A stretch of DNA of 64,000 bases from an uncultured Fibrobacterota bacterium (GCA_963753345.1 CAVWBU010000031.1:32001-96000), one strand, 5' to 3'; shown: positions 7,661-60,960, counted from the first letter of the stretch. Program-made: numbers and translations. The notes: generated by a model from the sequence alone, not told the origin.

Positions 7661-8151
7661 TGGTGGGGGCACCGCTTCGCGTTTCCCCCTGGCCCCAAGC
7701 CTCCTCGCCCTCCGGGCTGCGGGGTCTCGGGGCACACCCCCTCCTGCGAAGGGGCGCGCGATCGCGCTCGACTTGCGCTCGCGCGGCGTCGCCCGTTCAT
7801 GCTTCGCACCCTTCGGGCGCGCTTTGCGCGTGGTCTCCGCGCCTCTGGCGCTCCGGCTCGCAACGCAACCGCAGCGGTATGCCGCTTCGCGGCGATAGTG
7901 CATTCGGGCACAATCATCTTTGTTAATTTTCGTATGTCAATAATCTGCGAACATCCGAGCAAGCGCTTGTCCATTGCGCGTGCGTTAGGCCGGACTGGAG
8001 GCCACGCTGGAGCGCGGTGCTGCCTGACCACGGCCCGCAGGGCCCTCGTGGCAGGCAGCCCGAGGCCGAAGGCCGAGACCGTAAGGAGGGCCGACCCCGG
8101 TTATGTAGGGGCGTAGCGCGCTACACTCCTCCATAACCGGGGAAACGCCCA
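7661..8151 (+). repeat. Composite intergenic element: module A' (7661-~7895, containing module E 7795-7857) + module C (~7975-8151)
   Basis: Starts TGGTGGGGGCACCGCTTCGCGTTTCCCCCT and ends GGGGAAACGCCCA. A' matches the reverse complement of 51365-51522. Confidence 0.85.
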
Positions 8152-8184
8152 TTTTATTTGTTAGCTTGTCTAGCTTATCTAGTA

Positions 8185-8214
8185 TTGACTCGATTTCAGC
8201 TTGGAATGTATATT
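8185..8214 (+). promoter_or_regulatory. Possible sigma70 promoter for rplU-rpmA
   Basis: TTGACT-N18-TATATT upstream of AGGAG and the ATG at 8240. Confidence 0.4.
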
Positions 8215-8239
8215 GAAAGGCCTTCAAAGGAGTCGATTC

Positions 8240-8551
8240 ATGTTTTCGATTGTCGAACAGGACGGTTTTCAGTTCAAGGTGTCGCAGGGGGATACCATTC
8301 TCGTGCCCAGGATGAGCGCGGAAAAGGGGAGCGAAATAGCCCTCGAGAAAGTCCTCATGATCGGCGAGGGCGGCACCGTAAAGATCGGTTCACCCACCGT
8401 GAGCGGCGCAGTTGTCAAGGCAAAGGTCGTGGACCACGTGAAGGGCGAGAAGATTTTCATCATGAAGAAGAAACGCAGAAAGAACTACAAGAAGAGGACC
8501 GGGCACCGGCAGCAGCACACCGCGCTGCAGATTCTTTCGATAACCGCCTGA
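8240..8551 (+). CDS. rplU: 50S ribosomal protein L21
   Basis: [14 protein letters not shown]...[24 protein letters not shown] before the ATG at 8240. Confidence 0.97.
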
Positions 8552-8585
8552 CAAGGCGTCGCATCCGAAGAAAAAGGAACGTATC

Positions 8586-8840
8586 ATGGCACATAAAAAG
8601 GGCGGCGGCAGCAGCGTTAACGGACGGGACAGCAATCCTCAGTATCTCGGCGTCAAGAAATACGGCGGCGAAAAAGCGATCGCCGGAAACATTTTGGTCC
8701 GCCAGAAGGGCACGGTGATTCACCCGGGCCGCAACGTTGGCAAGGGCAAGGACGACACGCTGTTCGCGCTTATCGACGGCGTGGTCCAGTTCACCGTCGG
8801 CGCGAACGACCGCAAGAAAGTGCATATTCTTCCCGCTTAG
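8586..8840 (+). CDS. rpmA: 50S ribosomal protein L27
   Basis: [16 protein letters not shown]...GNILVRQKG; follows rplU. Confidence 0.98.
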
Positions 8841-8882
8841 CACAGCTTCCAAGTAACAGCTTCCCCAAGAATTCCAATGCAC

Positions 8883-9419
8883 GGGGAAAGTTTACCCCCT
8901 CGCTCCGGCAAAGCTCAACAGTTCTCGGGAGCTTCACCCCCGAACCCCGACCTGCTTTCTTTCCGCAGCGAAAGAAAGTAGGCAAAGAACGCCGCGCCTG
9001 CAGCGCCGCCTGATCCCTCGGCCGTCGGGCCGCTCGTGAACTCGCCCGGCAAAAAGCATCCGTCAAGAAATTTGCCCCGTAAATTCAAGTCCATTTGTCA
9101 ATACCAGACCAGCCGGGCTCGGACAGCACGAGCGGCCAAGTAACCCGCCCGTCCTGTTGGGCGGGTTAGCGCCGATGGCCTCAGGGTCGGCGCTGATGGC
9201 GCAGGAAAAAAAAGGCCAGTTCTTCGAACTTGCGCAAGCCGTTATTGACAATTGGGCAATGTCCTTCTGCCCTGCGTTAGGCAGGACTGGAAAAATGGTC
9301 CCGCTTGAGGCGGGATGCCGCCCGGACCCGGCCCTGTGGGCCATAGGGCCGAGGCGGCCCGAGGCCGAAGGCCGAGACCGGAAGGACGGCCGACCCGAGC
9401 ATGGCGAGGGGAACGCCCA
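8883..9419 (+). repeat. Composite element: A head stub (8883-8909) + module D (~8910-9205) + module C (~9266-9419)
   Basis: Similar to 16128-16573 and to the reverse complement of 39738-40200; ends GGGGAACGCCCA. Confidence 0.85.
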
Positions 9420-57775: not shown

Positions 57776-57853
57776 AGTATTTTTTATATCGACACAATAT
57801 ATTTTCCAATTACGCGGAAAGATTCCCTTTCCACGGCGCAAAGGACTCCTGTC

Positions 57854-59174
57854 ATGAAAAAACATGTGCCGAACAAAGTGCCCGCGTCGACGAAAAAGGC
57901 CGTGCTCCTCATTGAGGGCAGGCGGATCGAGCTTCCGGTCATCGAAGGCACCGAAGGCCAGAAGGGAATCGACATCACCGGCCTGCGCGGCAACAACGGC
58001 TACCTCACGTTCGACAACGGGTTCGCCAACACGTCGTCCACGCTGTCGAGCATCACGTTTGTCGACGGCGACAACGGCATCCTCCGCTACCGCGGTTATA
58101 ATATAGAAGACCTGGTGGAAAACTGCACCTTTGTCGAGGTCGCGTATCTGCTGGTGCAGGGCAAGCTGCCCACGGCGTCGGAACTCAAGAAATTCTCCGG
58201 CTACCTCAATCAGCATTCCATGATTCACGAGGACATGCACCATTTCTTCACCGGGTTCCCGCCGAACTCGCACCCCATGGCAATATTATCGGCCATGGTG
58301 ACCTCGTTGTCGAGCTTTTATCCCTATCTCGGCTACGACGACCCGAGCTTCGACATCACCGAGGCGCGGCTTTTGTCCAAGGTGCGCACCATTGCCGCGT
58401 TTTCGTACAAGAAATCGCGCGGCGAGCCCGTGGTGTACCCGCGCCACGACCTTTCGTACTGCGCGAATTTCCTCAACATGATGTTCTCCTCGCCGGTGGC
58501 CGAGTACGAGATAAACCCGGACGTGGTCAAGGCGCTCAACCAGCTCCTCATCCTGCACGCCGACCACGAGCAGAACTGCTCCACCTCGGGCGTCAAGCTC
58601 GTGGCGAGCACGGGCGTCAATTTGTACGCCGCGATCTCGGCGGGCATTTCGGCGCTGTGGGGGCCGTTCCACGGCGGCGCCAACCAGGCCGTGATCGAGA
58701 TGCTTGACACAATAAGAAAAGACCGGAAGAACATCAGGAAGTACCTCGAAAAGGCGAAAAACAAGAAGAGACAGATTCAAGCTCATGGGGTTCGGCCACG
58801 CGGTGTACAAGAACTACGACCCGCGCGCCAGGCTCGTTAAGAAGATCTGCCACGATCTTCTTCCGCGGCTCAACGTGTCGGACCCGCTCCTCGACCTTGC
58901 CATGGAGCTCGAGGCGGCCGCGCTCGCCGACGACTATTTCGTGGAGCGCCGCCTGTATCCCAACGTCGATTTCTATTCCGGCATCATCTACCGGGCCATC
59001 GGCATTCCCACCAACATGCTCACCGTGATGTTCACCATCGGCAGGCTCCCGGGCTGGATCGCGCACTGGAAGGAGACCATGGAGAACGAGAAGGGCAAGA
59101 TCTGGCGTCCGCGGCAGATCTACGTGGGCCCGCGGCGCAGGGAGTATGTGCCGATTGATAAGAGAATGAATTAA
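57854..59174 (+). CDS. gltA: Citrate synthase; frameshift near 58770
   Basis: [49 protein letters not shown]. Confidence 0.95.
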
Positions 59175-59202
59175 TATTCTATAAAAGCAAGAGAATATTA
59201 GT

Positions 59203-59325
59203 GTGGGGGAGGTATCCCCCTGCCTGCGGCCCTGTGGTCCTCCGGCACCCCCTCCTGGGTGGCCGCCTTGACAAAGCAGCTTCGAGAACCAAACATTGTT
59301 GTGGCGGCACCCACGAGCAGCGGTT
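59203..59325 (+). repeat. Solo module A
   Basis: GTGGGGGAGGTATCCCCC...GGCGGCACCCACG. Confidence 0.85.
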
Positions 59326-59536
59326 GCTAAGAAAAATCAGATGACAAATGGCACATTTCTTCCAGGTGAAAAATAGGAAGGAGTGTCATTGCGAGCGCAG
59401 CGAAGCAATCTACCGTTTGAATAGGTCCGTACTCTGTCTGCTGCATTCCGTGTTTCTATTCACTTTGTATCTTTGTCACCCTATACTAATTACAGCTCCT
59501 GTCCCGTGCCCCGTGCTATAGCGTATTTTTTGCATT

Positions 59537-60510
59537 ATGGTTTCCCTCCCCATCACCCTCAACGATTCGCAGACCAGCGGTTCGACCGGTTTCTGCGCAG
59601 GCGCCTGCCGCTGCGCACGCTGTCGGACATTTACCGGATGATCCGCACGGGCTTCGCTCGCGTGAACGGCAAAAAAGTCGAGCAGAGCCGCCGCCTTGCG
59701 GAAGGCGACATCGTGGAGCTGCGCGTGGACCAGGCGGAGCTCCAAACGCTGAAGCCGGCCGGGCCTGACGCAGCAACCGACATTTCCAAAACGGAATTCT
59801 ACAAACGCAACCTGAACATCGTCTACGAGGACGAAAGCATCGTGGCCTGCAACAAGCCGCCATACCTGGTGGTGCACCCGGGCACGGGGCATGCCGGCGG
59901 CGCGACGCTCATCGATCTTGTCAAAAGCTATCTGCTGCACAAGGGAACAAAGGCGGCCGACGCCGATCCGGTCCTGGTGCACCGGCTCGACCGCGACACG
60001 TCGGGAATCATCCTTATTGCCAAGAACAAATGGGTGGTGCGCTCCCTGCATTCGCTTTTCAGGGGAAAGGATTTTGTCAAGAAATACGTCGCCGTCTGCC
60101 ATGGCGCGCCGCCGGCGCAACGCGGCGTCGTGGAGGCTAACCTTGCAAAGACCGTCGAGCGCAACGAGGGCACCAAGATGCGGGTGGACGGATCGGGAAT
60201 GTTCTCGAAGACGGAATATGCGGTCGCGGCGACCGGAAACGGCCTTTCACGGTTGGAACTCACCCTCGTTACCGGCCGCACCCACCAGATCCGCGTGCAC
60301 ATGGCCCACATCGGGTGCCCGGTGGTCGGTGACGTGCGCTACGGCGACCGGGTTGCCGACGACGCACTTTTTGCGCGGACCAAGACGCCGCGGCGGCTCT
60401 ACCTGCATGCCGCGTCGGTCTCGTTTGTCCACCCGGTAACCGGTAAGCAGCTCACGCTTTCCGCACCGGTGCCCGAAGAATTTTCCTACATTCTCAATCC
60501 CTCAAAATAG
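59537..60510 (+). CDS. RluA/RluD-family pseudouridine synthase; probable frameshift ~10 codons after the ATG
   Basis: S4-like N terminus, NKP, VHRLDRDTSG, TGRTHQIRVH, GDVRYG. Confidence 0.9.
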
Positions 60511-60579
60511 CGAGATTTTTTCCTTATTTTTGATTGATGAAGAAAGTGCGTAAGTGGTAATATTAATAAGTGTATACAA

Positions 60580-60960
60580 GGGGGGAGGTATCCCCCTCGC
60601 TCCGGCCTCCTCGGCCTGCGGCCTGCGGTGTCCTGCGCTACCCCCTCCTGGGTGGCCGCCTTGATAAAGCAGCTGCAAGACCATGCATTGTTGTGGCGGC
60701 ACCCATGGAGAGCAGTTTAAAAGTCGTAAGCCAAAGCATTGACTCTAACTTCGAGATTCGGGCTGGCGGAGAAAATAAATTGACAGAATAGAATCCCTCT
60801 GCCGCGCGTTAGGTGGACCGTAGTGGTCCCGCCATAGCGGGATTGCCGGCCGACCCCGGCCCGAAGGGCCCTAGGGGCGGACCGGCAACGAGGCGAATAG
60901 CCGAGCCCGGAGGGAGACCGACCCGAGCCTGAGTTGTAACGAGGGCGAGGGGAACGCCCA
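60580..60960 (+). repeat. Composite element: module A + module C (~60795-60960)
   Basis: Similar to 10700-11110. Confidence 0.9.

What the first reader, a model, noticed from the sequence alone, without database searches (positions are those of the whole stretch)
7661..60960. Dense family of modular, structured intergenic elements (A/D - linker - C) with no mobilising enzyme in view
Seen: module C occurs on + at ~7975, 9266, 10950, 12960, 15210, 16421, 17530, 57585 and 60795, on - at 39738, 41552, 43224, 47100, 50976 and 56058, plus a tail at 20391. It is usually preceded by a conserved TGGCG(C) motif and by module A (about 13 whole or partial copies) or module D (3 copies). Heptamer runs often fill the linker. 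Read outward, both A and C contain GGCCGAAGGCCGAG-like and GCGAGGGG(G)AA..CCCA segments, so they look like diverged inverted ends. Inference: a non-autonomous mobile or recombination element (REPIN/MITE-like but larger and multibranched) mobilised in trans, or a multi-copy structured nucleic-acid family. I do not recognise this architecture as described. From memory and unverified, the minus-strand reading of C (TGGGCGTTCCC...GGTCGG...CCTAACGC) resembles a Bacteroidota repeat / the Rfam Flavo-1 motif.
Basis: partly seen in the sequence, partly recalled or inferred. Interest (0 to 1): 0.88.

Follow-up and report, generated by a model that had tools for sequence, protein, structure and literature searches.

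The report
Mosaic structured repeats between bacterial genes
The spaces between genes in this uncultured peat and sediment bacterium are packed with hundreds of copies of a modular, elaborately folded repeat that comes and goes between related species; it is a large new relative of the REP/BIME/MITE repeats, and what moves it is unknown.

Summary
All 15 module-C copies sit at the stated places. 14 match one covariance model; the 15th is a chimera. No Rfam family matches, Flavo-1 included.

Genome-wide counts in 4.5 Mb are about 390 C, 280 A and 16 D hits, or 2.15% of the DNA. Only 1 of 358 C hits lies inside a gene.

- **Layouts:** A-linker-C is the main unit (about 427 nt). C also occurs alone, after D, and as head-to-head doublets.
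- **Fold:** it covaries strongly (92.9% paired against 72.4% shuffled and about 41% slid).
- **Not a 5' leader:** orientation to the next gene is 174:168, and the conserved rplU promoter lies downstream of C.
- **Turnover:** occupancy of orthologous gaps differs between species. One congener has no copies and short gaps. Same-site copies in sister species belong to other subfamilies.
- **No mover found:** no target-site duplications, and no Y1 transposase, TnpB or reverse transcriptase in this genome.

Best reading: a non-autonomous mosaic repeat family (BIME/REPIN/MITE-like, but much larger) confined to one order. The mover is unknown and a host role is not excluded.

The scan already reported this family from other pieces of the same genome (e1-3242891, e1-3242892, e1-2377682, e1-2250730).

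The parts
7982..8151 (+). Module C copy, upstream of the rplU promoter
   Evidence: 130.4 bits; the rplU promoter at 8185-8214 lies downstream of it
9274..9419 (+). Module C copy, preceded by D
   Evidence: 136 bits
10959..11110 (+). Module C copy of the composite 10700-11110
12972..13152 (+). Module C copy (to 13110) plus a second end piece at 13143-13152
15220..15357 (+). Module C copy
16431..16573 (+). Module C copy, preceded by D
17540..17711 (+). Chimeric C: both ends kept, interior replaced by an AT-rich palindrome
   Evidence: not found by R1
20391..20445 (+). Solo 3' tail of C
39738..39889 (-). Module C copy; its 3' end abuts the stop of a + strand glycosyltransferase gene
41552..41730 (-). 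Module C copy of a minus-strand composite with A at 41866-42001
43224..43376 (-). Module C copy
47100..47252 (-). Module C copy
50976..51190 (-). Module C copy with a long insert
   Evidence: 52.3 bits
56058..56197 (-). Module C copy, preceded on its own strand by a long octamer array
57596..57775 (+). Module C copy (to 57733) plus a second end piece
60806..60960 (+). Module C copy
10700..10828 (+). Module A copy
   Evidence: E 4.5e-35
12712..12832 (+). Module A copy
14979..15108 (+). Module A copy
17301..17425 (+). Module A copy
18545..18702 (+). Module A copy with no C after it
41866..42001 (-). Module A copy
51424..51502 (-). Partial module A
   Evidence: E 1.3e-4
57242..57400 (+). Module A copy
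59203..59324 (+). Module A copy with no C after it
60581..60716 (+). Module A copy
7661..7900 (+). A-like variant module ahead of C 7982
   Evidence: by eye, resembles the variant in G002; not matched by my A model
8901..9215 (+). Module D copy
   Evidence: E 3.3e-88
16124..16368 (+). Module D copy
39950..40227 (-). Module D copy
10827..10874 (+). Linker array, period 8
14899..14936 (+). Linker array, period 8
18704..18846 (+). Linker array, period 8, 18 copies
56272..56392 (-). Linker array, period 8, 15 copies

Best explanation
A, D and C are modules of one family of non-autonomous, mosaic, structured interspersed repeats. The family is confined to one order of Fibrobacterota and has amplified hugely in this genus.

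The commonest unit is A, then an octamer tract, then a 45-nt conserved block, then C (median 427 nt). C also stands alone, follows D, or forms head-to-head doublets. Units lie almost only between genes, upstream of native promoters or against stop codons, in either orientation.

Shown:
- the copies and their shared multi-helix fold with compensatory changes;
- sharp unit boundaries;
- gain, loss or replacement at orthologous gaps since the species split.

Inferred:
- The fold is kept because a trans-acting protein must recognise the element as a folded single strand in order to copy or move it.
- That step leaves no target duplication, as with HUH-type or recombinase-type movers.
- Modules are reshuffled by recombination between copies.

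The protein is not identified. The canonical candidates are missing from this assembly, so the family may be largely at rest here. A secondary host use is possible but not shown.
For: - **Copy number and placement:** 390 C, 280 A and 16 D hits make up 2.15% of the genome. 1 of 358 C hits lies inside a gene.
- **A-C linkage:** 150 of 203 full A copies have a C downstream on the same strand, at a median gap of 124 nt. 106 strictly defined composites have a median length of 427.5 nt. Pairwise alignments start and stop within about 0-19 nt of the A start and the C end.
- **Doublets:** 28 head-to-head C doublets, 17 of them with a spacer of 123-127 nt.
- **Fold:** 92.9% of cells pair, against 72.4% in shuffles and 39-47% when slid. 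32 of 39 pairs show changes on both sides.
- **Distribution:** There are no matches in the fifth (99% complete) or in 2 other genera of the family. Occurrence elsewhere in the order is patchy. In the phylum sample, 15 of 151 genomes match and only one weak match lies outside the order. A follows the same pattern.
- **Orthologous gaps:** they differ in occupancy and length, and the empty congener's gaps are 34-296 nt at comparable sites.
- **Same-site copies:** copies in sister species rank 142nd-252nd among 254 paralogs and fall in other starred clades.
- **Paralog similarity:** the median nearest-paralog identity of C is 0.90.
- **Low-GC island:** 20.5-39.7 kb holds no copy.
Against: - No target-site duplication and no copy-specific inverted repeat beyond the shuffled expectation.
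- Outside three segmental duplicates, whole composites are at most about 81% alike, so there is no sign of very recent copying of the full unit.
- No Y1 transposase, TnpB or reverse transcriptase in G000 (94% complete). The one IS110 gene has no module nearby.
- No recurrent transposase-like neighbour.
- No nucleotide-exact filled/empty pair was obtained. Public contigs break at the repeats.
- Species labels cluster only weakly on the C tree: 16 changes against a shuffled mean of 18.7, as low in 14 of 200 shuffles.
- The fold and its junction motifs are kept across families of the order. G-U pairs outnumber A-C pairs, 84 to 34 and 482 to 232. Both would also fit a host-selected RNA.
Confidence: 0.6

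Rival explanations
1. The modules are mainly host-used cis elements. They would act as RNA or DNA structures in untranslated regions or between transcription units, insulating, terminating or stabilising transcripts or binding a nucleoid protein, as REP/BIME elements do in E. coli. On this view they are kept at each locus by host selection, however they first spread.
For: - The fold and the unpaired junction motifs are conserved across families of the order.
- G-U pairs exceed A-C pairs.
- The A side faces a gene's 3' end in 212 cases against 130.
- Convergent gaps hold 30% of copies, although they are 15% of gaps over 150 nt.
- A pyrimidine-rich tail follows C.
Against: - C's orientation to the next gene is 174:168.
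- A congener lacks the family entirely, and orthologous gaps are often empty.
- Same-site copies in sister species are not each other's nearest relatives.
- Simple terminator-like sites are not enriched (19 found, 18.5 expected), and none lies at a module end.
- Both strands fold about equally well (z -6.7 and -6.0).
Confidence: 0.2
2. C is a multi-copy small-RNA gene. The conserved 45-nt block upstream would be its promoter, and the T/C-rich tail after the closing helix its terminator.
For: - A conserved block with TTGGCG, TTGAC and TAGAWT-like words sits directly 5' of C in the profile of 243 copies, and a T-rich tail sits 3' of it.
- One copy (17497-17525) scores as TTGGCG-17-TATAGT.
- Distant relatives of C in another family of the order carry a TTTACA word about 55 nt upstream. 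By my own count it is followed 17 nt later by a TAnnAT-like word.
Against: - In the consensus, the spacing between the -35-like and -10-like words is 21-22 nt or 3-4 nt, neither of which fits the organism's own TTGACT-N18-TATATT promoter.
- Only 1 of the 7 + strand copies in 7600-21500 was flagged.
- D-C and doublet layouts carry other upstream sequence.
- Hundreds of copies of one RNA gene would be without precedent.
Confidence: 0.1
3. C is a shared 5' leader or riboswitch-like element regulating the downstream genes.
For: In 7.9-17.5 kb and 57-61 kb, every C lies upstream of a gene on the same strand.
Against: - Genome-wide, the next gene is co-oriented in 174 cases and convergent in 168.
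- Four minus-strand copies at 39.7-47.1 kb abut the stops of Pfam-verified + strand genes.
- The rplU promoter, conserved in five species, lies downstream of C.
Confidence: 0.03

Closest known systems
REP / BIME elements of enterobacteria (bacterial interspersed mosaic elements)
   Same: Intergenic, high-copy and structured. They are built as mosaics of a few recurring modules in set orders, found in both orientations, and enriched at gene 3' ends and in convergent gaps.
   Different: REP units are 20-40 bp single palindromes (PMC3733652, abstract start in the search listing). C is 138-215 nt with 11 helices. Octamer tracts are part of the unit. Binding partners are unknown. The BIME definition itself is recalled, not read here.
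REPINs mobilised by RAYT (Y1 HUH) transposases
   Same: Non-autonomous, with the structure kept across copies. 28 head-to-head doublets have a fixed spacer, like the two inverted REPs of a REPIN (PMC3337134 and PMC3116915, abstract starts only).
   Different: No Y1_Tnp match in this genome. Doublets are a minority layout. The unit is about ten times larger. There is no dominant population of identical master copies.
MITEs and modular Gram-positive repeats (Correia, ERIC, BOX, RUP; named from memory)
   Same: Size range of 150-450 bp, inverted-looking ends, modular make-up, and insertion next to promoters and gene ends.
   Different: No target-site duplication, no parent IS with the same ends, and a branched fold rather than one long hairpin.
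Ssn GIY-YIG single-strand nucleases with their genomic hairpin repeats (PMC11893778, abstract start only)
   Same: A host-encoded protein that recognises a repeated folded single-stranded DNA motif would fit the data.
   Different: No link between C and any GIY-YIG gene was tested here.

Membership tests
REP/REPIN-RAYT system | Repeat unit is a short (20-40 bp) imperfect palindrome | tested here: not met
   C is 138-215 nt with 39 modelled pairs in 11 helices. The size criterion comes from PMC3733652 (abstract start in the search listing).
REP/REPIN-RAYT system | Two units in inverted orientation with a spacer form the mobile doublet | tested here: inconclusive
   28 head-to-head doublets, 17 with a spacer of 123-127 nt. 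Most C copies (about 150) are paired with A instead.
REP/REPIN-RAYT system | A RAYT/Y1 transposase gene in the genome, flanked by the repeats | tested here: not met
   PF01797 gives 0 matches in G000 (2 candidates scored; genome 94% complete). Matches occur in only 3 of 5 congeners and do not track the repeats.
MITE (derivative of a DDE transposon) | Target-site duplication flanking each copy | tested here: not met
   Longest direct repeat between own flanks averages 5.19 nt, against 5.24 for shuffled flank pairs, in 105 composites.
MITE (derivative of a DDE transposon) | Terminal inverted repeats | tested here: inconclusive
   The ends read TGGGSG... and ...CSCCCA, with purine-rich and pyrimidine-rich flanks of about 10 nt. 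The match between A's start and C's end is weak.
MITE (derivative of a DDE transposon) | A full-length parent element with the same ends and a transposase gene | tested here: not met
   Seven A...C or C'...C pairs 600-4000 nt apart with nothing between them hold five ORFs. Four are ordinary genes by Pfam and one has no family. Neighbour clustering found no transposase family.
BIME-type mosaic repeats | Recurring modules combined in a few fixed orders within intergenic regions | tested here: met
   A-linker-C, D-C, C'-spacer-C, solo C and solo A layouts are all present. The definition is recalled.
BIME-type mosaic repeats | Bound by host proteins (IHF, gyrase, Pol I) | not testable with these tools
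   No binding data.
Rfam Flavo-1 or any other Rfam family | Match to the family's covariance model | tested here: not met
   0 matches at gathering score in the window. Six chance-level matches at E 0.39-7.8 in 7600-21500, none to Flavo-1.
cis-regulatory 5' leader / riboswitch | Fixed position inside the 5' untranslated region, on the strand of the regulated gene | tested here: not met
   174 co-oriented against 168 convergent. The rplU promoter lies downstream of C. Strands of the flanking genes were checked by Pfam.
Independent small-RNA gene | Own promoter and terminator, and a discrete transcript | tested here: inconclusive
   Promoter-like words are present but at the wrong spacing. Expression could not be tested because no RNA run is listed.

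The most novel reading that the evidence does not exclude
C is recognised in trans through a conserved branched fold of about 150 nt, either by a so far unknown kind of mobilising enzyme (not HUH, not DDE, not reverse transcriptase) or as a domesticated multi-copy functional RNA or ssDNA. On this reading the order holds a new class of structured genetic element, not simply a bigger REP.
Probability: 0.2. Interest if true: 0.8.

Novelty: new variant of a known kind. Interest (0 to 1): 0.5.

Why it matters
Interspersed repeats with a branched fold this elaborate, kept across a whole order and making up about 2% of a genome, are not catalogued. Rfam has none, and two full-text searches for repeats in this lineage found nothing relevant.

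They show that the REP/BIME way of life exists in Fibrobacterota with a much larger and more complex unit. They break metagenome assemblies at every gap. They also point to an unidentified protein partner that reads a complex folded strand. Finding that partner would explain how such repeats spread without any of the known transposases.

Tried and rejected
- **Expression:** no RNA holder is listed among 14 public runs, so expression could not be examined.
- **Laying contigs:** contigs of four DNA runs laid on 2001-21900 gave no empty-site joint. Contigs end at the repeats, and the listed joints link different copies of the family.
- **Strict regular expression:** it found only 5 copies, so HMM and covariance searches replaced it.
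- **Target-site duplication and flank-pairing tests:** negative.
- **Enzyme searches:** PF01797, PF07282 and PF00078 are absent from G000. The single PF01548 gene lies at a contig end with no module within 3.5 kb.
- **Tyrosine recombinase paralogs next to modules:** two of the three are one duplicated stretch, and none is bracketed by A and C.
- **Recurrent neighbour genes:** none in G000 or at 24 loci of distant relatives.
- **tRNA likeness of the ...CCA end:** ARAGORN finds nothing. The conserved tail continues beyond CCCA, so a 3'-CCA end is unlikely.
- **Strand choice by folding energy:** both strands are far more stable than shuffles.
- **Terminator scan:** no enrichment.
- **Sigma-54 or ECF reading of the TGGCG block:** rejected by eye on spacing.
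Full report
**What is there**

Each starts with GCGYYAGG, ends with RRCGCCCA, and is 138-215 nt long.

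A covariance model built from 13 of the copies finds 14 of the 15 in the window at E 1.2e-10 or better. The 15th, at 17540-17711, keeps both ends but has an AT-rich palindrome in place of its interior. The end motif GGRRCGCCCA occurs 16 times against 0.94 expected.

The other modules are also real:
- Module A has 10 HMM hits in the window, 9 of them full length.
- Module D has 3 copies.
- The linker tracts are mostly of period 8 (eight arrays, unit GTTGARAA) and less often of period 7 (four arrays).

Rfam gives nothing at gathering score for the whole window. Over 7600-21500 it gives only six chance-level matches at E 0.39-7.8, none to Flavo-1. ARAGORN finds no tRNA-like gene.

**Scale and architecture**

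Genome-wide, nhmmer finds 358 C hits with a first profile, 390 with the 13-copy profile (254 of them full length), and 412 after one more round. The covariance search of the genome scored 150 candidates, its cap, and all 150 matched. A has 280 hits, 203 of them full length. D has 16 hits, 11 of them over 200 nt. Together the modules cover 97,086 bases. That is 2.15% of the genome, or roughly a tenth of what my crude gene caller leaves as non-coding.

A and C are linked:
- 150 of 203 full A copies have a C downstream on the same strand, at a median gap of 124 nt. 46 have no C within 1.5 kb, and 7 have other arrangements.
- 152 of 254 full C copies have an A upstream.
- 106 strictly defined composites have a median length of 427.5 nt.

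A roughly 45-nt block is conserved directly 5' of C. It contains TTGGCGC, then TTGAC, then a TAGAWT-like word, then TGCCGC. A pyrimidine-rich tail of about 10-15 nt follows the terminal CCCA (243 copies).

A third layout exists. 28 head-to-head C pairs lie less than 1 kb apart, against 3 tail-to-tail and 8 tandem pairs. 17 of the 28 have a spacer of 123-127 nt. Their outer flanks are again purine-rich on the left and pyrimidine-rich on the right.

**The fold**

I took 63 matches from the window, three congeners and five more distant genomes. In these, 92.9% of 2048 cells form standard pairs, against 72.4% in shuffles (0 of 500 as high) and 39-47% when partners are slid by 1-3 columns. 32 of 39 pairs show changes on both sides. 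This alignment was fitted to the model, which favours pairing. In a sequence-only alignment of the 254 full copies, 87.3% of 9595 cells are Watson-Crick.

The closing helix changes from GCGTT/AACGC to GCGCC/GGCGC, GCACG/CGTGC, GCATT/AATGC, GGGTT/AACCC and others across genomes, while AGG, GGACNG, CCGACC and the final CCCA stay.

G-U pairs outnumber A-C pairs 84 to 34, or 54 to 33 without one constant G-U pair. The count is 482 to 232 in the sequence-only alignment, where two adjacent pairs supply 354 of the G-U. This is a weak hint that the strand as written is the one that folds. A whole composite is far more stable than shuffles on both strands (z -6.7 and -6.0).

**It is not a leader or a riboswitch**

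In 7.9-17.5 kb every C lies ahead of a same-strand gene, which suggested a shared 5' leader. Three results reject this:
- Of 358 C hits, the gene on C's 3' side is co-oriented in 174 and convergent in 168. 15 hits lie at contig edges and 1 lies inside a gene. The gene caller is my own codon-usage script.
- The strands of 31 window genes were checked against Pfam, and 30 have a family. The four minus-strand copies at 39.7-47.1 kb sit with their 3' ends against the stops of + strand polysaccharide genes.
- Upstream of rplU, a TTGACT-N18-TATATT promoter is conserved in all five species compared, and it lies downstream of C.

The A side faces a gene's 3' end more often than not (212 to 130). Convergent gaps are over-represented, at 103 of 342 copies against 226 of 1477 gaps longer than 150 nt.

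**Turnover between species**

The model reaches its scored cap in 4 of 5 other species of the genus. It finds nothing in the fifth (G003, 99% complete) or in two other genera of the family. It finds a few to 19 weaker matches in genomes of other families of the order. In an even sample of the phylum, 15 of 151 genomes match, and only one weak match lies outside the order. Module A has the same pattern within the genus: 42, 14, 25 and 23 matches, and 0 in G003.

Gene order around the window is conserved in G002-G005, but the gaps are not:
- The gap before rplU is 615 nt here, against 276, 245, 203 and 95 nt in the others, none of which has a C there.
- The gap g11908|g13188 holds A+C here (488 nt). 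It is 50 nt in G002, holds two C copies in G004 (998 nt), holds a truncated C in G005, and is 98 nt in G003.
- g56399|g57866 holds A+C here (714 nt) and is 213-296 nt and empty in all four.
- g47856|g48863 is empty here and filled in G002.
- At comparable sites G003 is always empty, at 34-296 nt.

Where two species both have a C at one site, the copies are not nearest relatives. Seven such pairs are 59-75% alike over the longer copy and rank 142nd-252nd among the 254 G000 paralogs, whose best matches reach 87-95%. On a tree of 36 copies, the window's 41552 copy and the same-site G005 copy fall on opposite sides of starred branches. Species labels overall cluster only weakly, with 16 changes against a shuffled mean of 18.7, as low in 14 of 200 shuffles.

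So several subfamilies predate the species, and gaps have been filled, emptied or overwritten since. The low-GC island at about 19-37 kb holds no module; none lies between 20.5 and 39.7 kb.

**What argues against simple transposition**

- Own flanks share no more direct or inverted repeat than shuffled flank pairs (direct 5.19 against 5.24 nt; inverted 5.70 against 5.64).
- Apart from three pairs whose flanks also match (segmental or assembly duplicates), whole composites are 74-81% alike. The alignments begin and end within about 0-19 nt of the A start and the C end.
- C alone is better kept. The median nearest-paralog identity is 0.90, 26 of 254 are at 0.95 or more, and 14 are at 0.98 or more, some of which are duplicates.
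- G000 has no match to Y1_Tnp, the TnpB zinc-ribbon domain or RVT_1. Its one IS110-type gene lies at a contig end with no module within 3.5 kb.
- The 761 genes next to modules form only ordinary paralog groups: GH2, radical SAM, DUF4423, SDR, ABC and others. One tyrosine-recombinase group is present but is not bracketed by modules.
- Seven A...C or C'...C pairs with 600-4000 nt and nothing else between them hold five ORFs. Four are ordinary by Pfam (one an EEP-family nuclease) and one has no family.
- 24 loci from distant relatives share no neighbour gene.

**Reading**

The data fit a family of non-autonomous mosaic repeats in the manner of BIMEs, REPINs and MITEs. The module is far larger and branched, and there is turnover between species. 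Mobilisation, its enzyme and the strand or molecule that folds are all inferred, not shown. A host role, or transcription as RNA, is not excluded and could not be tested: no RNA run is listed, and the public contigs break at the repeats.

The taxon names used here (Fibrobacterota, Chitinivibrionales) come from earlier notes of this scan, not from my own test. Those notes reached the same REP/BIME comparison on other pieces of this genome. My counts are independent of them.

**Literature**

- A full-text search for 'Chitinivibrionales' with 'repeat' found 3 papers, none about genomic repeats by title and abstract start.
- 'Fibrobacterota', 'intergenic' and 'repetitive' together found none.
- For REP, REPIN and Ssn I saw only search listings and abstract starts.
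- The BIME, Correia, ERIC, BOX and RUP comparisons are recalled.

Noticed in passing
window 19000-37000: A low-GC island (G+C 0.37-0.45 against 0.55-0.63 around it) with no A, C or D module. A Schlafen AlbA_2/HTH gene and an ABC-2 transporter gene lie at its left edge. It is probably a later-acquired polysaccharide gene cluster.
   Followed up: partly
window 11172-11471 and 11921-12220: A 300-nt direct repeat at 100% identity, 749 nt apart. It duplicates part of a metallo-beta-lactamase-fold gene, and both ORFs hit the same single orthologue in the relatives. It is either a tandem duplication or an assembly artefact.
   Followed up: partly
window 57866-59174: Citrate synthase is split into two overlapping ORFs (profile positions 1-250 and 251-357). 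This is probably a frameshift or a sequencing error.
   Followed up: no
window 21305-21413 and 13949-14038: Other period-8 tandem arrays (units AAAGTGAC x13.6 and CATCCACG x11) lie directly upstream of genes. They are unrelated in sequence to the GTTGARAA linkers.
   Followed up: no
window 17540-17711: A C copy whose interior is replaced by an AT-rich palindromic insert. The 5' 55 nt and the 3' end are intact.
   Followed up: partly
L001 6392-6687 and L002 6273-6537 (G002 and G004, gap before rplU): A different repeat, made of CACAGAGA-type words in inverted arrangement, fills the same gap that holds C in the window.
   Followed up: no
G000 C16:58000-58042, C18:98640-98685, C35:97745-97790, C39:1812-1857: A further module of about 45 nt (GGGGGAAG...CTCAAAACTCAAGAGAAGATC) adjoins the outer end of some C copies.
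   Followed up: no
L002 gap g53865|g56399 (G004) and L001 10771-10840 (G002): GTTGARAA-type octamer tracts occur after stop codons in relatives with no A or C beside them, so the tracts can exist on their own.
   Followed up: partly
G000 C47:84184-85368: A gene for an endonuclease/exonuclease/phosphatase-family protein lies between an A and a C on the same strand. This is a single case.
   Followed up: partly
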